From a virus (taxonomy: Duplodnaviria > Caudoviricetes), in IMG/VR virus record IMGVR_UViG_3300025016_000004: a DNA stretch of 64,000 nucleotides; one strand, 5' to 3'. This document shows positions 2,071 through 23,924 of this stretch, in pieces; the first letter of the stretch is position 1, and each line of letters opens with the position of its first letter. Under the pieces are notes generated by a model. The model was not told the origin of the DNA. It was given only the letters and a program-made list of their open reading frames with translations, and searched no databases. The translations under genes and the position numbers were made by a program.

Positions 2071-3489
2071 ATGACAATTAAAGCAATATTTGATGAAATA
2101 AGTAACACAGCTGGTGATAATGCCAAAATGGATGTATTACGCAAGTATAAAGACAACGACTTACTTAAAGAAGTTTTGTATCGAATAAAATCTAAAAGAG
2201 TGAAGTTTTTTATTAAACAAATACCTGAATATATTTCATTAAATAGTTCAATCCCAGCTTCATTAGAGTGGGGTTTAAATAATCTTGATGAAATTTCTGA
2301 CAGAAAAATTAGTGGACAAGCGGCTATAAATCATTTAAAATTCATATTAGAAAGTGTATCACCAGATGATGCTTATATCATTGAGAGAATTATTGATAAA
2401 GACCCTAAGAATGGTTTAGGTAGAACCTACATTAATAAAGTCTATGGTGATTTGATTGAGAAAACGCCATATCAAGGTGCTAAATCATATGATGAAAAAT
2501 TAGCTAAAGATATTTTTAAGAAATATGGTTACGCTTATAGTGACGTTAAAATGGATGGTAGGTATGCTAACGCAATCATTCAAGGTGGTGAAGTTGAGTT
2601 AGAGTCTAGACAAGGTGAAACAACTCATATTCCAAGTGACTCATTATTATTTGAGGAATTATCAAAATTCCCTGATGGTGTATTAAATGGTGAGCTTACA
2701 ATGGAGAATTTAGACCGATACACAAGTAACGGTATTATAGCTTCAATTGTCGATATTGAGGGTCGTGGTAAAATGGGTGATAGAAGTGATGAAGAAACCG
2801 CTAAAAAATTAGTGGCATTCGAGAAAAAGCATGGTAGTTTTAAAGAAGCTGTTGATAAAATCAGATATACTGTATGGGATTCAATTACATTAGATGATTA
2901 TTTTAATAAGAAATCTGATATTGAATATAGACATAGATTGGATTTCTTATTTAAAAAGACTCCAGTTTTAGAATGTGATAGAGTATCAGTAGTTGAACGT
3001 AAGAAAGTATATTCTTATGATGAAGCAATGAGTCACTTCCAAGAGATTTTAAATAGAGGTGAAGAAGGTACCATCCTTAAAGCACCAACAGCTGGATGGT
3101 TTGATGGTAAGAAAAATCACCAAATAAAAATGAAATTAGAAATGAATATTGACCTTAGAGTTATAGGGTTTGAATATGGTGAAAAAAGAAGTAAAAATGA
3201 AAATGTTTATTCAACAATAAACCTTGAATCATCATGTGGTAAATTAAGAACCAATGCTTCTGGTATGACTGAGAAGATGATGAAAGATATTACTGAAAGA
3301 GGTGATGAACTTATGGGGACAATAGTAGAAATACGTTGTTGTGGTTTATCTCAAAACTCTAATGGTGATTGGTCAACTTTACATCCTTCAGTTGTTGAAT
3401 TGAGAGATGATAAAGATACTTGTGATTCATTAGAGTCATGTCAAGAGATTGAAGCAATGGCTAAAGGATTAGGTAAAGAAGTGGGATAA
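2071..3489 (+). CDS. ATP-dependent DNA ligase
   Basis: KMDGRY motif I, NGEL, EEGTILK, C-terminal OB fold, T4 gp30-like N-terminal domain. Confidence 0.93.
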   Translation: MTIKAIFDEISNTAGDNAKMDVLRKYKDNDLLKEVLYRIKSKRVKFFIKQIPEYISLNSSIPASLEWGLNNLDEISDRKISGQAAINHLKFILESVSPDDAYIIERIIDKDPKNGLGRTYINKVYGDLIEKTPYQGAKSYDEKLAKDIFKKYGYAYSDVKMDGRYANAIIQGGEVELESRQGETTHIPSDSLLFEELSKFPDGVLNGELTMENLDRYTSNGIIASIVDIEGRGKMGDRSDEETAKKLVAFEKKHGSFKEAVDKIRYTVWDSITLDDYFNKKSDIEYRHRLDFLFKKTPVLECDRVSVVERKKVYSYDEAMSHFQEILNRGEEGTILKAPTAGWFDGKKNHQIKMKLEMNIDLRVIGFEYGEKRSKNENVYSTINLESSCGKLRTNASGMTEKMMKDITERGDELMGTIVEIRCCGLSQNSNGDWSTLHPSVVELRDDKDTCDSLESCQEIEAMAKGLGKEVG

Positions 3490-17950: not shown

Positions 17951-18228
17951 CCCTCTATGCTGTACGTTGGAATTCAGCGTGGCTTTTATTATTATTAAAC
18001 TGCCCTTATGAGCAAAATGGCAAAGCTTGCTGGTTTAGACCCAGTGGAAAACATAAGAAACGTTCTCAGTTCGACTCTGAGTAAGGGTACAATCCGAAGT
18101 ATTAATTTTAAAGTAAAAATAATTTAATTTTTCCTAACTGTTACGGATAACGCAATTAGAAAATGGATTAAAAGTTCTTTAAGTAAGTAGACCCCACGAT
18201 TTCGTCAGTTCGATTCTGACTAGAGGGA
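17951..18228 (+). pseudogene. Split tRNA-Leu(TAG): 5' half 17951-17985, 3' half 18188-18228
   Basis: CCCTCTA/TAGAGGG acceptor and GTGG/CCAC anticodon stem reunite across a ~200-nt insert. Confidence 0.75.
18002..18089 (+). tRNA. tRNA-Leu(TAG)
   Basis: GCCCTTA/TAAGGGT, loop TTTAGAC, long variable arm. Confidence 0.88.
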
Positions 18229-20767: not shown

Positions 20768-20870
20768 CAAATAATAATGGTCGGGTAGAGCATAATAAGT
20801 TATTTGACATTTTGGTAGAATTTATTTTTTAAAAAATGTGTCTTTTAATAAAAACTTCATATTTATTAAT

Positions 20871-21362
20871 ATGAGTAGAGACGAAAAGATTATAGAAATG
20901 TATAACGCTGGTGAAACAGCCACAGTTATATCAAAAGAATTAAAAATAGGTAGGAAAACAGTTTATAGAACTTTAGATAAGTTTAATATAACATTACATA
21001 AAAATAAACCTAATAATTGTCTAGTGTGTGGTAAGACATCTAAAAAGAAGTTATGTGGTACGTGTAACACTAATCTAAGGAGATATAGAGTCAAGAAATT
21101 AGCTGTTGAATATCTAGGTGGTGAATGTAAAAGATGTGGTTGGGAGGGTGATGTATCAGGATTTGATTTTCATCATAAAGACCCAAATCAAAAAGATTTT
21201 AATCCAAGTGGTTTAAACTTGGCTAATAAATCTTGGGAAAGGGGTAAAGAAGAATTGGATAAGTGTGAATTATTATGTGCACTGTGTCACAGATTAGAAC
21301 ATAGCACTTATGGGATTTTAGAAAAAATAAATTTAGAGTATAAAGGTAAAACCTTTCTATAA
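20871..21362 (+). CDS. HTH plus HNH endonuclease
   Basis: C..C zinc fingers, FDFHH..KCELLCALCHRLEH; stop abuts tRNA-Phe. Confidence 0.88.
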   Translation: MSRDEKIIEMYNAGETATVISKELKIGRKTVYRTLDKFNITLHKNKPNNCLVCGKTSKKKLCGTCNTNLRRYRVKKLAVEYLGGECKRCGWEGDVSGFDFHHKDPNQKDFNPSGLNLANKSWERGKEELDKCELLCALCHRLEHSTYGILEKINLEYKGKTFL

Positions 21363-21435
21363 GGCTTGGTAACTCAGTTGGTAGAGTAGTGGACTGAAAA
21401 TCCATATGTCACTGGTTCGATTCCAGTTCAAGCCA
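21363..21435 (+). tRNA. tRNA-Phe(GAA)
   Basis: GGCTTGG/TCAAGCC, loop CTGAAAA. Confidence 0.93.
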
Positions 21436-21585
21436 CTATACCAAAAAGTTATTGAAGAACCATGTGTCGTTGGTTCGATTCCAACTCCGACCACAAATTG
21501 TGATAGTTAATCCTCTTATCTATGAAGTCTTAGGTAATGAAACTAGTCTCGGTAGACAATGTGCACATTGATTCTACCCAAATAT

Positions 21586-21657
21586 GGCCCATTCGTCTAA
21601 TGGTTAGGACGACAGGTTTTCGACCTGTAAACGAGAGTTCGACTCTCTCATGGGCTA
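21586..21657 (+). tRNA. tRNA-Glu(TTC)
   Basis: GGCCCAT/ATGGGCT, loop TTTTCGA. Confidence 0.92.
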
Positions 21658-21689
21658 CAAGTTTGCAAACTAAGGTTATTAATTTCCTT

Positions 21690-21755
21690 GGGGGTATCGT
21701 CTAACTGGTTAGGATAGCTATTGGTAAGATATGGGTTCGAGTCCCATTGTTTCCA
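21690..21755 (+). pseudogene. Degenerate tRNA lacking anticodon arm
   Basis: D arm GTCTAACTGGTTAGGAT and T arm ATGGG-TTCGAGT-CCCAT present. Confidence 0.5.
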
Positions 21756-21767
21756 AAAAATTAATAT

Positions 21768-21842
21768 GGTTTATCGTCTAAATGGCAAAAGATACTGTGC
21801 GTGTCAGTACAGAGATGGAGGTTCGAGCCCTCCGAAAACCGC
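21768..21842 (+). tRNA. tRNA-like gene, identity uncertain (8-nt anticodon loop containing GTC/GTG)
   Basis: GGAGG-TTCGAGC-CCTCC T arm; GGTTT/AAACC acceptor. Confidence 0.45.
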
Positions 21843-21931
21843 AATATGGGGGGCACATGTACCAAGGCAAGGCGTTGGACATTTACCTAAACTTATGTGG
21901 TCGTTTCGATTATTTTGTGATATTTATTAAT

Positions 21932-22573
21932 ATGAAAGAATGTCCAAAGTGTGGTAATAACCACCATAAAAAGGGTAAGTTTTGTTCTAGGTCTTGTGCT
22001 AATAGTAGAACTTGGTCCAAAGAAGATAAAAGTAAAAAATCTGAAATCGCTAAAAAATCTGAAAAAGTTTTATTGGCCAATCGTGACCCTGAAAGAAGAA
22101 AGAATCTCTCAATATCAGCAAAAGCCCAAGCAAAAGTTGGTAACATTAATTGGAGTAAATTACATACTAAAGATGTTATTAACAAGGCCTTAAAAACTAA
22201 AAAGCTTAAAAGGGAACTATGGTTAGATTCATTTGATAGGAGTGATAAAATTGAATACCGTAAAGCTTGTAAATTTAAATTTAGTCTTAATTCATACCCA
22301 GATAAATTTGATTTTTGGTTGATTGAAGAGTATGGCTGGTATAAAGCTAAAAATATGGGTGACAATCCAAATGGGATAAGTAGAGACCATATGTACTCAA
22401 TTAGTGAAGGATTTAAAAATGGTGTTGACCCGTATTATATTAGTCACCCAGCCAATTGTAAATTAATGAGGCATGGTGAAAATAATAAAAAAGATGGTAA
22501 AAGTAGTATTAATCTAGAAGATTTAATAAAAAAAGTTAATAAATGGGATAATAAATATGGGCCGTTAGCATAA
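21932..22573 (+). CDS. Zn-finger plus HNH endonuclease
   Basis: CPKC..FCSRSC; SRDH..HPANC..H.EN; 3' end overlaps tRNA-Ala. Confidence 0.82.
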   Translation: MKECPKCGNNHHKKGKFCSRSCANSRTWSKEDKSKKSEIAKKSEKVLLANRDPERRKNLSISAKAQAKVGNINWSKLHTKDVINKALKTKKLKRELWLDSFDRSDKIEYRKACKFKFSLNSYPDKFDFWLIEEYGWYKAKNMGDNPNGISRDHMYSISEGFKNGVDPYYISHPANCKLMRHGENNKKDGKSSINLEDLIKKVNKWDNKYGPLA

Positions 22574-22631
22574 ATGGCAAATGCTCTTCATTTGCAATGA
22601 GGAAGATTGGGTTCGAATCCCAGCGTGTCCA
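22559..22631 (+). tRNA. tRNA-Ala(TGC)
   Basis: CTTCA-TTTGCAA-TGAGG; G3-U70; bulged acceptor. Confidence 0.82.
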
Positions 22632-22805
22632 CAATGTCCGAGAGAAGGATTCGATTTCCTTTGTCTCCACAAACATTCTTTACTTATGAATATAATTTAT
22701 TATATTATATTTATGAGTAAGGATTATCGAAAATTATACGAAACTACCCACGGTGAACTACCCACACACTAAAAAGATGTGTGGGCTTCCTGCACAACGC
22801 ACAGC

Positions 22806-23924
22806 CTAATGGCTCACGTTAGCGTACAAAGGGTTGTCCCTAACCCCGAAATTCTTTATGTTATATGCAGCGTTTACATCTCTATCAATTGAATTACCGC
22901 ACTTATCACAATCATAAGTTCTATCTAAAAGTTTTAAATCTTTCTTGTGGTTTCCACAGTTAGAACATACTTTACTGCTTGGTTCAAACCTTCCAATTAC
23001 AACAAGATTTTTACCTTGCCATTCAGTCTTATATTCAAGCATTGTTCTTAATTGTCGCCAACCCATATCAGATATTGCTTTAGCTAAATTATGGTTCTTA
23101 ACCATATTACTAACAGACAAATCTTCCAATACAATTGTATTATAAGATTTAACTAATTCAGTAGATATTTTGTGCAAGTAATCAGTCCTTTGGTTACGAA
23201 TTTTTTCTTGCAGTAATGCTACTTTTAATTTTTGTTTTTCTCTATTTATTGAGTCTTTCTGTTTTCTTGCAAGGCTTCTTTGTTCAACTCTTAATCTTCT
23301 TTGTTGTGATTTAAAGAAGTTTTTATTTTCATATACTACACCATCAGAAGTAATAGCTAAATCTTTAATTCCAAAATCAATACCAACAGATGTTTCAGTT
23401 TTAATTGATTTTTTCTTTGGTTTTTCGGTTTGAGTATCAACCAATATTGAAACAAAATATTTACCAGTTACTGTTTTAGTTAATGTAACTCTTTTAGGTA
23501 AACCTTTAAATTCTCTGTGGTAATCAATAGCAACTTCTTTTAATTTAGGTAGCTTTAGTATTCCCTCTTTAAACGATATTTCAAATCCTTGTGGAAACGT
23601 AATTGACTGTTTGGAATACTTATTTTTAAATTTAGGAAATTGACCTTTACCCTTAAAAAAGTTTTGATATGCTGTATCTAAATTGATTATGCTATGTTGT
23701 AATACTTGACTTGGACATTCTTTAATGTAGTCAAATTCTTTTCTCAATTCTGGAAGTTGTTTTATTAAATCATATTTAGATATTGATTTTTTATTTGAGG
23801 CATACGCAACAGTCTTGGTTTCCAACCCCAAATTATAGACAAGTCTATTTACACCAAAATACCTTTGTAGTTGGTCTTTTTGGTCATCTGTTGGAAATAT
23901 TCTGTATTTGTATCCTTTAAGCAT
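22806..23924 (-). CDS. tnpB: IS605 TnpB RNA-guided nuclease
   Basis: HTH YKYRIFP, GIDFG (RuvC I), LEDL, SKVCSNCG Zn finger, DRDVNAA. Confidence 0.95.
   Translation of the reverse strand: MLKGYKYRIFPTDDQKDQLQRYFGVNRLVYNLGLETKTVAYASNKKSISKYDLIKQLPELRKEFDYIKECPSQVLQHSIINLDTAYQNFFKGKGQFPKFKNKYSKQSITFPQGFEISFKEGILKLPKLKEVAIDYHREFKGLPKRVTLTKTVTGKYFVSILVDTQTEKPKKKSIKTETSVGIDFGIKDLAITSDGVVYENKNFFKSQQRRLRVEQRSLARKQKDSINREKQKLKVALLQEKIRNQRTDYLHKISTELVKSYNTIVLEDLSVSNMVKNHNLAKAISDMGWRQLRTMLEYKTEWQGKNLVVIGRFEPSSKVCSNCGNHKKDLKLLDRTYDCDKCGNSIDRDVNAAYNIKNFGVRDNPLYANVSH

What the first reader, a model, noticed from the sequence alone, without database searches (positions are those of the whole stretch)
21849..22669. 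tRNA-Ala split at its anticodon by a cassette of HNH plus a replacement tRNA-Ala
The halves rejoin cleanly (acceptor GGGGGCA/TGTCTCC with G3-U70; GGACA-TTT|CAA-TGTCC). The ~750-nt insert holds an HNH gene whose 3' end overlaps a divergent intact tRNA-Ala(TGC). Inference: the endonuclease homes into tRNA anticodon loops and pays for the damage by delivering a cleavage-resistant isoacceptor. Alternatively the halves could be rejoined, since the phage encodes ligases, Tpt1, 2H enzymes and RNase P.
Basis: partly seen in the sequence, partly recalled or inferred. Interest (0 to 1): 0.78.

Follow-up and report, generated by a model that had tools for sequence, protein, structure and literature searches.

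The report
Endonuclease cassette with spare tRNA splits tRNA-Ala
In this groundwater giant phage, a selfish cassette made of a nuclease-like gene and its own alanine tRNA sits inside another alanine tRNA gene just after the anticodon, so it replaces the gene it breaks, which may explain the puzzling "tRNA inside a tRNA intron" reported in other huge phages.

Summary
Pieces 21849-21886 and 22633-22669 are two parts of one tRNA gene, separated by a 746-bp insert (21887-22632).

- **Split gene.** It belongs to a widespread phage tRNA-Ala family. I found 70 uninterrupted copies in viral contigs; 65 of the 66 that ARAGORN called carry Ala anticodons. Seven further contigs keep the anticodon arm intact, one matching a relative's halves over 31 nt across the junction.
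- **Break point.** It lies after the anticodon, between nt 36 and 37. The window's copy reads TAC; its two closest relatives read TGC.
- **Insert.** It holds a 17-nt fragment of another tRNA-Ala's T-arm, a 213-aa ORF under purifying selection, and a conserved tRNA-Ala(UGC) overlapping the ORF by 15 nt. The ORF has an invariant D-H...N...N motif but only weak HNH fold matches.
- **Relatives.** Two (75% protein identity) share the whole architecture in different tRNA-Ala alleles, with non-homologous outer flanks. Others keep only decayed pieces.
- **Not a known intron.** There is no group I core, no U before the junction and no terminal G. No joined form was seen.

Best reading (0.62): a homing-type cassette that brings a replacement tRNA, leaving dead halves. 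RNA-level rejoining or a structural role for the paired ends is not excluded. Other notes of this scan record similar Phe and Leu cases in this window.

The parts
21849..21886 (+). 5' piece (nt 1-36) of the interrupted phage-family tRNA-Ala gene. It holds the acceptor 5' strand GGGGGCA, the unusual D region, the anticodon-stem 5' strand GGACA and the loop TTTAC, so the whole anticodon is here (TAC in this window).
   Evidence: The 19-nt family motif occurs once in the window against 0 expected. L090/L091 carry homologous pieces ending CTTGC. Uninterrupted relatives appear.
21887..22632 (+). The 746-bp insert (cassette). Its last base, C22632, is a 1-nt linker; the linker is TAA in L091 and CAAA in L090.
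   Evidence: W, L090 and L091 are homologous only from G1 of the 5' piece to A73 of the 3' piece. Outer flanks are 34-47% identical, which means not homologous.
21896..21912 (+). T-arm-derived box TGTGGTCGTTTCGATTA in the ORF's 5' leader. It is a fragment of another tRNA-Ala allele (variable loop, T stem 5' strand and T loop) that travels with the cassette.
   Evidence: It matches positions 47-63 of the uninterrupted tRNA-Ala in L151 exactly over 17 nt; shuffled controls averaged 7.6 and reached at most 12. The box is visible upstream of the ORF in L007, L008, L010, L011, L090-L093. The leader is 98% identical between W and L090, against 64% at third codon positions.
21932..22573 (+). 213-aa ORF (P0002): an N-terminal zinc ribbon (CPKC...CSRSC) and a C-terminal nuclease-like domain with invariant D152-H153, N175 and N184. 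It is the putative homing endonuclease. The 263-aa ORF called from 21782 is read-through of the 5' piece.
   Evidence: ORF. PHROG 23051, E 5.9e-36, function unknown. No Pfam family. 365 homologues. Invariant motif. AF2 pLDDT 85.6. The best solved-structure matches to the C-terminal domain are HNH nucleases but weak, Z 3.5-3.7. Identity by codon position is 0.81/0.89/0.64, which indicates purifying selection.
22559..22631 (+). Cassette-borne tRNA-Ala(UGC) with G3.U70 and A73. Its acceptor stem closes only if one U in the 3' strand is bulged. It overlaps the last 15 nt of the ORF.
   Evidence: Rfam RF00005 scores 37.7 bits against a gathering score of 29. ARAGORN calls it Ala(tgc) at lowered threshold here and at default in L090. 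It is 93-96% identical among W, L090 and L091. Pair 4-69 covaries, C-G versus T-A in L090. It is 87-88% identical to the 'tRNA-OTHER' of Vibrio phage phi-ST2, with a compensated T-stem pair.
22633..22669 (+). 3' piece (nt 37-73) of the interrupted tRNA-Ala: AA, the anticodon-stem 3' strand TGTCC, the variable loop, T arm AAGGA/TTCGATT/TCCTT, the acceptor 3' strand TGTCTCC and A73.
   Evidence: The T arm and acceptor are identical to the uninterrupted tRNA-Ala of L130. L090/L091 carry the homologous piece with pair-preserving changes.

Best explanation
A mobile, homing-type cassette has been copied into a phage tRNA-Ala(UGC) gene between nt 36 and 37, just 3' of the anticodon.

**What the cassette contains.** It holds a short leader that still carries a T-arm fragment of an earlier tRNA-Ala target. 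It also holds a 213-aa zinc-ribbon plus HNH-like nuclease gene, and its own divergent tRNA-Ala(UGC), whose first 15 nt are the ORF's last codons.

**Inferred mechanism.**
1. The nuclease cuts cassette-free alleles of this tRNA-Ala family in or near the anticodon arm.
2. Repair from a cassette-bearing genome copies the whole unit in.
3. The tRNA gene is thereby destroyed, but the cassette supplies a tRNA of the same identity and anticodon. This tRNA differs from the target everywhere except TTGCAATG, so the phage loses no decoding capacity and the new allele is no longer a target.
4. The two flanking pieces are then relics. They have decayed or been deleted in more distant relatives, and the window's copy has lost its Ala anticodon (TGC to TAC).

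**Shown:** the anatomy; family membership of the split gene; the existence of uninterrupted alleles; the same cassette at the same site in different alleles; selection on the ORF, the leader and the internal tRNA.

**Inferred:** nuclease activity and its cleavage site; resistance of the cassette tRNA; non-function of the halves.
For: 1. **Family membership.** The split gene belongs to a phage tRNA-Ala family. I found 70 uninterrupted copies in IMG/VR; ARAGORN calls TGC in 63, CGC in 1 and GGC in 1.
2. **Empty target sites.** Seven contigs have the uninterrupted anticodon arm. In L097 it is identical to L090's halves over 31 nt across the junction.
3. **Same site, different alleles.** The architecture and junction are the same in L090 and L091, whose ORFs are 75% identical in protein. 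Homology ends exactly at the tRNA's ends. W's halves are as close to the uninterrupted L130 (81%) as to L090's halves (79%). L090/L091's halves are 89% identical to the uninterrupted L101. The cassette therefore sits at one site in different natural alleles.
4. **Cassette conserved.** The ORF stop overlaps tRNA-Ala(UGC) in W, L007, L008, L010, L090-L092. Across 80 family loci, 33 ORFs overlap a tRNA 5' end and 12 more lie within 20 nt; Ala-TGC is the commonest partner, at 15.
5. **Selection.** Between W and L090, identity is 98% in the leader and 93% in the internal tRNA. In the ORF it is 0.81/0.89/0.64 by codon position.
6. **Earlier target carried along.** The leader holds a 17-nt exact fragment of another tRNA-Ala allele's T arm.
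7. **Decay series.** L092 keeps only acceptor/D and T-arm/acceptor pieces. L007 keeps a decayed 5' piece and no 3' piece. L008/L010 keep remnants only. The window's copy is the only one of more than 70 with a non-Ala anticodon.
8. **Nuclease candidate.** D-H...N...N is invariant. The top solved-structure matches to the C-terminal domain are all HNH or beta-beta-alpha-metal nucleases.
9. **Not a known intron.** No Rfam intron or ribozyme at E<=1. Exon 1 ends in C, and the insert ends in C or A.
10. **Precedent.** T4 SegB spreads itself and the neighbouring tRNA genes and recognises the tRNA T-psi-C motif (PMC2330249).
Against: - **HNH membership is not established.** No Pfam HNH hit even at E<=1, nothing against PDB sequences, and fold Z of only 3.5-3.7.
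- **No cleavage data.** The cut site is inferred only from where the 3' piece begins.
- **Stem changes all preserve pairing.** This holds for every substitution in the halves' stems among W, L090 and L091: 7-66 A-T/G-C; 27-43 G-C/G.T/A-T; T stem with two double changes. Pure relics would not be expected to do this, unless each homing event captures a fresh functional allele.
- **Precursor folding.** The ends of the 821-nt precursor are predicted to pair (P 0.6 in W, 0.96-0.99 for pairs 1-6 in L090/L091). This is compatible with an RNA-level role.
- **No empty-site variant of this same phage** was seen in the contigs laid.
- **Origin unexplained.** How the first '5' piece - cassette - 3' piece' arrangement arose is not explained by ordinary two-sided homologous repair.
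Confidence: 0.62

Rival explanations
1. The interrupted tRNA is still made. The 746-nt insert is removed from the operon transcript and the two pieces are ligated by proteins. For example, cuts in the anticodon loop and at the 3' end of the nested tRNA could be sealed by the phage's RNA ligases. This would give a mature tRNA with Ala identity, making the insert a protein-dependent tRNA intron that carries an mRNA and a tRNA.
For: - The stems of the two pieces stay fully paired in W, L090 and L091, and every stem substitution preserves pairing, including cross-piece pairs 7-66 and 27-43.
- The joined L090 sequence has a cloverleaf as its minimum-energy fold and is called tRNA-Ala at ARAGORN's default threshold.
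- The precursor ends are predicted to pair.
- The nested tRNA ends 1-4 nt before exon 2, so its 3' processing would cut close to the junction.
- Earlier notes report RNA ligase genes in this phage (e1-5389558, e1-5389533; not tested here).
- Lak megaphage authors reported conserved tRNA 'introns', one of which encodes a tRNA (10.1101/356790).
Against: - No group I core was found.
- Position -1 is C rather than U, and there is no terminal G.
- The junction is 36|37, not the canonical 37|38.
- I saw no 4-bp helix for a bulge-helix-bulge motif by inspection.
- The linker after the nested tRNA varies (C, TAA, CAAA), so that cut would not be at a fixed place.
- The window's copy would pair Ala identity (G3.U70) with a Val anticodon, giving a mistranslating tRNA.
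- The halves are truncated in L092 and lost in L007/L008/L010.
- No joined RNA was seen, although the only RNA run covers just 182 nt of the ORF.
Confidence: 0.12
2. The pieces are not rejoined but are kept as a tRNA-like clamp. In the polycistronic tRNA transcript they pair across the insert (acceptor stem plus T arm). RNase P and the 3' tRNA-processing enzymes would then excise the cassette RNA as a unit with protected, paired ends, which sets the level of the nuclease mRNA.
For: - In L092 the anticodon arm is deleted on both sides, yet the acceptor strands and a perfect T arm are retained.
- The acceptor pairs in the minimum-energy fold of all three full precursors.
- The anticodon itself is free to vary (TAC in W), while the stems stay paired.
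- The cassette lies inside a tRNA operon. Family-wide, the ORF stop overlaps a tRNA 5' end, so tRNA processing and nuclease expression are physically coupled.
Against: - L007, L008 and L010 do without the 3' piece.
- The same conservation pattern follows from repeated homing into fresh alleles.
- There is no direct evidence of processing at these ends.
- Acceptor sequences are conserved family-wide, so pairing of the outer ends is partly expected by descent.
Confidence: 0.12
3. No nuclease-driven homing is involved. The arrangement arose once, by illegitimate recombination or duplication among tandem tRNA-Ala genes in a tRNA array, and was then inherited vertically. The ORF is merely a passenger of unknown function that lives next to tRNA genes.
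For: - HNH membership is unproven.
- ORF divergence (78%) is similar to divergence of the halves (76-79%) between W and L090, as co-divergence predicts.
- No empty site was found in this phage's own population.
Against: - The outer flanks of W and L090/L091 are unrelated, while the unit between G1 and A73 is conserved.
- The halves match different standing alleles.
- The leader carries a fragment of a third allele.
- Two more nested tRNA arrangements occur in the same window, one with an unrelated Pfam-HNH gene.
- Across 80 loci from many environments, the ORF family is consistently placed at tRNA 5' ends or just behind tRNA-Ala.
Confidence: 0.08

Closest known systems
T4 SegB, a free-standing GIY-YIG homing endonuclease in the T4 tRNA gene cluster (Brok-Volchanskaya et al. 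2008, PMC2330249)
   Same: A selfish nuclease gene embedded in a phage tRNA cluster that spreads together with neighbouring tRNA genes. SegB's recognition site contains the conserved T-psi-C stem-loop motif. Here the cassette's leader carries a T-arm fragment and its target is a tRNA gene.
   Different: SegB lies between intact tRNA genes. Here the cassette sits inside a tRNA gene, leaves two matching halves and brings a tRNA of the same identity. The nuclease family is also different: an uncharacterised HNH-like family, PHROG 23051, with DUF7487-annotated proteins among its structural matches.
Homing endonuclease cassettes that carry a replacement for the gene part they displace (T4 MobA/gene 60 type; also earlier notes on this genome, e1-5389471 and e1-5389459)
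   Same: The logic is the same. The element inserts into a useful gene and avoids the cost by bringing a substitute, leaving the old part as a stub.
   Different: The substitute here is a whole RNA gene (a tRNA) rather than a protein N-terminus, and the broken gene is left as two halves that still pair.
Group I introns in bacterial tRNA anticodon loops, some with a homing endonuclease (own knowledge: the Synechocystis tRNA-fMet intron with I-Ssp6803I; see also 10.1101/2020.01.27.920355)
   Same: An endonuclease-bearing insert interrupts a tRNA gene in the anticodon loop. Interrupted and uninterrupted alleles coexist.
   Different: There is no ribozyme core, no U at -1 and no terminal G. The insert contains a complete second tRNA. 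Nothing here indicates self-splicing.
'Enigmatic' tRNA introns of Lak megaphages, including a tRNA-Thr intron predicted to encode a tRNA (Devoto et al., bioRxiv 10.1101/356790)
   Same: A tRNA nested inside another tRNA gene of a huge phage, with intron-plus and intron-minus alleles. ORF homologues also occur in Lak phage tRNA regions.
   Different: Those inserts were described without a nuclease gene and without an explanation. Here the nested tRNA comes with an intact nuclease-like ORF and a traceable series of decay states. That suggests the Lak cases may be cassettes that lost their ORF; this is an inference and was not tested.

Membership tests
Phage tRNA-Ala family with 5' GGGGGCRCATGTWCCAAGG (the split gene) | Sequence homology over the whole length to uninterrupted members | tested here: met
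   The joined W pieces are 81% identical to L130 and 80% to L101. The L090/L091 pieces are 89% identical to L101. The motif occurs once in the window against 0 expected.
Phage tRNA-Ala family with 5' GGGGGCRCATGTWCCAAGG (the split gene) | Ala identity elements (G3.U70, A73) and an Ala anticodon | tested here: inconclusive
   G3.U70 and A73 are present. The anticodon is TAC in the window, TGC in L090/L091, and an Ala anticodon in 65 of 66 uninterrupted copies that ARAGORN called.
tRNA (Rfam RF00005), for the cassette's internal gene | Score at or above Rfam's gathering threshold | tested here: met
   37.7 bits against a threshold of 29 at 22559-22631. The homologue in phi-ST2 scores 44.9 bits. 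ARAGORN calls it only at lowered threshold in W but at default in L090.
Free-standing homing endonuclease cassette | Presence/absence polymorphism at one precise site in homologous targets | tested here: met
   Interrupted at 36|37 in W, L090 and L091. The same anticodon arm is uninterrupted in L097-L103.
Free-standing homing endonuclease cassette | The encoded protein cleaves the cassette-free allele near the insertion site | not testable with these tools
   This needs protein expression and an in vitro cleavage assay.
HNH / beta-beta-alpha-metal nucleases | Profile match to an HNH family (Pfam PF01844 and relatives) | tested here: not met
   No HNH family at E<=1 for any of 26 members. No PDB sequence match at E<=10.
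HNH / beta-beta-alpha-metal nucleases | Catalytic His preceded by Asp on strand 1, Asn after strand 2, and Asn/His on the helix | tested here: met
   D152-H153, N175 and N184 are invariant in 26 sequences. The model has strands 149-153 and 176-180 followed by helix 181-185.
HNH / beta-beta-alpha-metal nucleases | Fold similarity to solved HNH domains | tested here: inconclusive
   The best matches to residues 95-211 are Gme HNH (Z 3.6), the BrxU HNH domain (Z 3.5-3.7), GVE2 HNH (Z 3.0) and Cas9 HNH domains. All are below Z 5 and Foldseek E is above 0.2.
Group I intron in a tRNA anticodon loop | Catalytic core detectable by covariance model | tested here: not met
   No Intron_gpI hit or any ribozyme at E<=1 in 16000-36500. 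Only 45 nt lie before the ORF, and after it only the internal tRNA (whose first 15 nt overlap the ORF) plus a 1-nt linker.
Group I intron in a tRNA anticodon loop | U at the last exon-1 position and G as the last intron base | tested here: not met
   Exon 1 ends in C36 in W, L090 and L091. The insert ends ...CCAC...CATAA or ...CACAAA.
Protein-spliced (archaeal/eukaryal type) tRNA intron | Bulge-helix-bulge motif at the junctions; canonical position 37|38 | tested here: inconclusive
   The position is 36|37. By inspection there is no 4-bp helix between the loop's 5' side and the insert's 3' end, which is occupied by the nested tRNA's acceptor strand. No dedicated BHB search was run.
Theta (minimal HDV-like) ribozyme 3' of phage tRNAs (PMC10879173) | A P1 helix starting at the cleavage site, with its complement downstream | tested here: inconclusive
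   No complement to the first 7 nt was found by eye after either junction, and no HDV-like Rfam hit appeared. The published RNArobo descriptor was not available to run.

The most novel reading that the evidence does not exclude
The two pieces are exons. In this reading, this phage lineage makes a working tRNA from a gene interrupted by a 746-nt insert that itself encodes a nuclease mRNA and a second tRNA. Proteins would do the cutting and joining: tRNA-end processing of the nested tRNA, a cut in the anticodon loop, and the phage's own RNA ligases. That would be a protein-dependent tRNA intron in a bacterial virus. In the window's copy it would yield an alanine-accepting tRNA that reads a valine codon.
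Probability: 0.1. Interest if true: 0.9.

Novelty: new variant of a known kind. Interest (0 to 1): 0.62.

Why it matters
**A new way for a selfish nuclease to pay for its damage.** Nuclease genes that bring along a replacement for what they break are known for protein genes. Here the replacement is a complete tRNA gene and the broken gene is a tRNA. That gives the element a very conserved, widely distributed landing site at no decoding cost to the phage.

**A testable explanation for two puzzles of huge-phage genomes.** These are the duplicated or odd tRNA genes in their large tRNA arrays, and the 'tRNA inside a tRNA intron' reported for Lak megaphages. The series from intact cassettes to bare nested tRNAs and orphan halves seen here would produce exactly such objects.

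**A nuclease family with an inferable target.** Relatives of this uncharacterised protein family occur in cultured phages such as GAP32, Acinetobacter phage 133, S16 and CP21. The family is tightly associated with tRNA 5' ends, and its target can now be guessed and assayed.

**If the rarer reading is right.** If the halves are rejoined or act as an RNA clamp, it would be a new kind of RNA processing in a bacterial virus.

Tried and rejected
- **ARAGORN with intron search** (-i0,3000) on 21601-22900 found nothing. It expects the canonical intron position, so this says little.
- **Exact-match scans of IMG/VR** with 23-nt and 34-nt pieces of the two halves found nothing. Degenerate patterns later succeeded.
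- **The search for related loci in viral contigs** with the single protein found only two N-terminal matches.
- **Own genome:** none is held for this window.
- **Sequencing runs.** 23 DNA runs (aquifer, groundwater and one hot-spring record) hold the stretch. The contigs laid show no joint across the insert. The single RNA run covers only 22118-22299 with one 182-nt contig. This is no evidence on transcription or splicing.
- **Domain-only fold** of residues 100-213 gave pLDDT 51.6 and was discarded.
- **Profile against PDB sequences:** no hit.
- **Protein-language-model neighbours** include DUF7487, NUMOD3 and HNH clusters at 0.88-0.91. These are leads only.
- **Specificity test with ARAGORN.** Joining every acceptor-compatible 38-mer of the window to the 3' piece gave about 20 lowered-threshold calls. 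I therefore do not use ARAGORN on the joined halves as the main evidence.
- **Ribozyme at either junction.** No P1 complement and no Rfam hit.
- **UTR box as part of one decayed tRNA with the 5' piece.** Rejected, because the 5' piece's anticodon-stem strand matches the distant 3' piece in all three loci, while the box matches a different allele (L151).
- **L093-L095 as the uninterrupted allele.** Rejected. That copy is itself degenerate: the acceptor is 1 nt short, the T stem is mismatched, and the anticodon is GCA or TCA.
- **Literature:** six literature searches found no description of this arrangement.
Full report
**Setting.** The window comes from a large uncultured phage found in aquifer and groundwater metagenomes. 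Positions 16.8-35.4 kb hold a tRNA array of 20 ARAGORN genes plus several that only Rfam detects. The finding lies at the end of an Asp-Phe-Glu block. An IS200/IS605 element (TnpB 22806-23924) follows directly.

**The observation.** The sequence at 21849-21886 and 22633-22669 forms the two parts of one tRNA.
- The acceptor pairs 7/7 (GGGGGCA with TGTCTCC), including G3.U70, with A73 as discriminator.
- The anticodon stem is GGACA/TGTCC and the T arm is regular, AAGGA-TTCGATT-TCCTT.
Adding the next base on either side gives a 7-nt loop, and ARAGORN then calls tRNA(tac).
- The true junction came from relatives (below). Exon 1 ends after the complete anticodon (...TTTAC, 21886) and exon 2 starts with A37 A38 (22633).
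- ARAGORN on joined pieces is not very specific. About 20 other 38-mers in the window also gave lowered-threshold calls when joined to the 3' piece. I therefore rest the case on homology.

**What the split gene is.**
- The 5' motif GGGGGCRCATGTWCCAAGG occurs once in the window, against 0 expected. It occurs in 71 IMG/VR stretches.
- Seventy of these continue as an uninterrupted tRNA. ARAGORN called 66 of them: TGC in 63, CGC in 1, GGC in 1, and four were not called.
- This is a widespread phage tRNA-Ala family with an unusual D region.
- The joined window pieces are 81% identical to the uninterrupted L130 gene, with an identical T arm and acceptor.
- A degenerate pattern spanning the junction found seven contigs with the anticodon arm intact. 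In L097 it matches L090's two halves over 31 nt, reading GGCGATAGACACTTGC then AATGTCTGTGTGGTG.

**The insert.** It spans 21887-22632 and has three functional parts.
1. *A 45-nt leader.* Its core, TGTGGTCGTTTCGATTA (21896-21912), matches exactly the variable loop, T stem 5' strand and T loop of another family allele, L151. Shuffled controls reached at most 12 nt. The box recurs upstream of every close ORF homologue, including ones not preceded by a 5' piece. The leader is 98% identical between W and L090, although third codon positions are only 64% identical.
2. *ORF 21932-22573.* It encodes 213 aa with a zinc ribbon and a C-terminal domain.
   - D152-H153, N175 and N184 are invariant in 26 homologues.
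   - It matches PHROG 23051, function unknown, and no Pfam family.
   - A confident model (pLDDT 85.6) puts these residues on a strand-strand-helix unit.
   - The best solved-structure matches to that domain are HNH nucleases only (Gme HNH, BrxU, GVE2, Cas9 HNH). They are weak, at Z 3.0-3.7 with Foldseek E>0.2.
   - Relatives occur in cultured phages GAP32, Acinetobacter 133, S16 and CP21, all uncharacterised. Some structural matches are annotated DUF7487.
   - I treat it as a probable HNH-like nuclease whose membership is unproven.
   - Identity by codon position (0.81/0.89/0.64) shows purifying selection.
3. *A tRNA at 22559-22631.* Its anticodon is TGC and it has G3.U70 and A73. It overlaps the ORF's last 15 nt.
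   - Rfam scores it 37.7 bits against a gathering score of 29.
   - Its acceptor stem has three mismatches unless one U is bulged.
   - It is 93-96% conserved among W, L090 and L091, with a covarying 4-69 pair.
   - It is 87-88% identical to the 'tRNA-OTHER' of Vibrio phage phi-ST2, with a compensated T-stem pair.
   - It behaves as a selected RNA gene.

**Relatives with the same architecture.**
- L090 and L091 have ORFs 75% identical in protein. Both carry 5' piece - leader - ORF - same nested tRNA - 3' piece, with the junction at the same place.
- Their 5' pieces end CTTGC, so the anticodon is TGC. This fixes the break at 36|37 and the identity as Ala.
- Homology between W and these loci begins at G1 and ends at A73. 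The outer flanks are unrelated, at 34-47% identity.
- L092 (69%) keeps only the acceptor/D part on the left and the T arm plus acceptor on the right.
- L007 (67%) keeps a decayed 5' piece and no 3' piece.
- L008/L010 (62-64%) keep only remnants.
- In L093-L095 (66%) the order is different. A cassette-type tRNA-Ala comes first, then the leader, then the ORF, whose end overlaps a degenerate, uninterrupted member of the split family.

**The family at large.**
- Across 80 metagenomic loci, 33 ORFs end inside the 5' end of a tRNA gene and 12 more lie within 20 nt. The partners are Ala-TGC in 15 cases and Cys in 11, with many others.
- More distant members sit just downstream of an intact family tRNA-Ala.

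**Relics or exons?**
- *Stem changes.* Among W, L090 and L091, every substitution in the halves' stems preserves pairing. Pair 7-66 is A-T or G-C. Pair 27-43 is G-C, G.T or A-T. The T stem is AAGGA/TCCTT against GTGGG/TCCAC.
- *Why this need not mean function.* The variants coincide with standing alleles of the uninterrupted family. W's T arm and acceptor equal L130's, and L090/L091 resemble L101, L132 and L097. This is what repeated homing into different functional alleles would give, with the distal exon parts retained from each recipient.
- *Evidence for relics.* There is a decay series in L092, L007 and L008. The window's copy is the only one of more than 70 with a non-Ala anticodon.
- *Evidence against a known intron.* No group I core or any ribozyme appears at E<=1. 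Exon 1 ends in C rather than U, and the insert does not end in G. The position is not 37|38. The linker after the nested tRNA varies (C, TAA, CAAA).
- *What I cannot exclude.* An RNA-level role remains possible. The acceptor stem forms in the minimum-energy fold of the full 821-825-nt precursors, with pair probabilities of 0.6 in W and 0.96-0.99 for pairs 1-6 in L090/L091. The RNA data available are uninformative.

**Mechanism proposed.**
- The ORF product cuts cassette-free family tRNA-Ala genes in or near the anticodon arm. This is inferred from where the 3' piece begins. Repair then copies in the leader, the ORF and the spare tRNA.
- The leader's T-arm fragment from a third allele suggests the cassette carries a scrap of an earlier target.
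- The left side has a degenerate stretch plus T-arm box and the right side has a fresh 37-63 region. This duplication would fit a one-sided homologous invasion followed by end joining. That step is speculative.
- The spare tRNA shares only TTGCAATG with the target around the junction, so it need not be recognised. This is also an inference.
- T4 SegB is the nearest studied analogue. It recognises the tRNA T-psi-C motif and drives inheritance of neighbouring tRNA genes (PMC2330249).

**Recurrence and wider meaning.**
- *Phe.* A short 5' piece GGTCGGG... at 20779 is followed by a Pfam-HNH gene (20838-21362), an intact tRNA-Phe (21363-21436), and a 3' piece from the anticodon loop to ...TCCGACCA at about 21495.
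- *Leu.* CCCTCTA at 17951 and TAGAGGGA at about 18221 bracket an intact tRNA-Leu (18002-18090), with no ORF.
- Devoto et al. described conserved 'introns' in Lak megaphage tRNAs, one predicted to encode a tRNA (10.1101/356790). ORF homologues lie in Lak tRNA regions.
- Decayed cassettes of this kind would look exactly like that.
- I found no paper describing the arrangement.

**Verdict.** Nuclease activity, the cut site and the fate of the halves remain open. It is a new variant of a known kind.

Noticed in passing
80 metagenome loci L010-L089; window 22559-22573: In this ORF family the stop codon very often lies inside the first 5-45 nt of a downstream tRNA gene: 33 of 80 loci, with 12 more within 20 nt. 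The conserved C-terminal K-Y-G is coded by ...AAATATGGG, which runs into the tRNA's 5' G run. RNase P cutting at the tRNA 5' end would remove the stop codon from the nuclease mRNA, which could act as a built-in limiter of expression.
   Followed up: partly
window 20779-21495 and 17951-18221: There are two more nested tRNA arrangements. (1) A tRNA-Phe 5' stub, an unrelated Pfam-HNH gene (20838-21362), an intact tRNA-Phe (21363-21436), and a tRNA-Phe 3' piece from the anticodon loop onward. (2) Two tRNA-Leu halves (CCCTCTA / TAGAGGG) around an intact tRNA-Leu(tag), with no ORF.
   Followed up: partly
L094:687-760 versus L093:2628-2701 and L095:830-903: The degenerate family tRNA overlapped by the ORF homologue differs between near-identical contigs. 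Its anticodon loop is TTGCAGA (GCA) in L093/L095 and TTTCAGA (TCA, opal-suppressor-like; ARAGORN calls it 'SeC') in L094. All three keep G3.U70.
   Followed up: no
window 22559-22631; L003:1511-1582 (Vibrio phage phi-ST2): The cassette's tRNA-Ala is 87-88% identical to a gene annotated 'tRNA-OTHER' (pseudo) in about 26 Vibrio schizo-T4 phage records. The identity includes the same three acceptor mismatches, and a T-stem pair is compensated. The shared oddity suggests a functional, horizontally spread tRNA-Ala variant rather than a pseudogene.
   Followed up: partly
IMG/VR loci L097-L172: A large phage tRNA-Ala family has a non-standard D region (GCATGTWCCAAGG...GGCGA), G3.U70 plus G5.U68, and often a 6-7-bp anticodon stem. 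ARAGORN places its start 1-3 nt too far in for most members and misses several.
   Followed up: partly
L091:946-1063 and L090:1-110: Directly upstream of the split tRNA in the two relatives lies a tRNA-like gene (acceptor GTCGTAT.../...ATACGAC, good T arm) carrying an internal insertion of about 45 nt. ARAGORN does not call it.
   Followed up: no
window 21690-21755 and 21770-21845: Two short non-canonical tRNA-like genes lie between tRNA-Glu and the split tRNA. Rfam scores the first 35.3 bits; ARAGORN calls both only at lowered threshold and with poor anticodon arms. Homologues stand at the same place in L091 (about 444-595).
   Followed up: no
window 22680-23924 (and on to the TnpA seen in L006): An IS200/IS605 element (TnpB 372 aa, minus strand, with Y1 TnpA beyond it) abuts the 3' piece. 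The sequence TTAC lies at 22680-22683. In several assemblies contigs break at 22753 and 22853, and depth roughly doubles at 22724-22876, as for a repeated element end.
   Followed up: no
L001:2349-3360 (LR756500.1, uncultured huge phage): An intact tRNA-Ala(tgc) is followed by a frameshifted homologue of the ORF (two ORFs, 2481-3065 and 3062-3310). An orphan T arm plus acceptor 3' strand (GGGATTCGAACCCCTTAGATTCCA) comes directly after the stop. This looks like another decay state of the same kind of cassette.
   Followed up: partly
window 32934-33017: An uncalled tRNA-like element has acceptor strands CGGGAAA / TTTCCCG and a good T arm (GGTCGGTTCGATTCCGAC), but a long, odd middle part. It was found through a 2-mismatch match to the leader box.
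   Followed up: no
window 21782-22573: The gene callers' 263-aa product (P0003) starts inside the upstream tRNA-like gene and reads through the 5' piece. Conservation of M-K-x-C-P-K-C across homologues puts the real start at 21932.
   Followed up: yes
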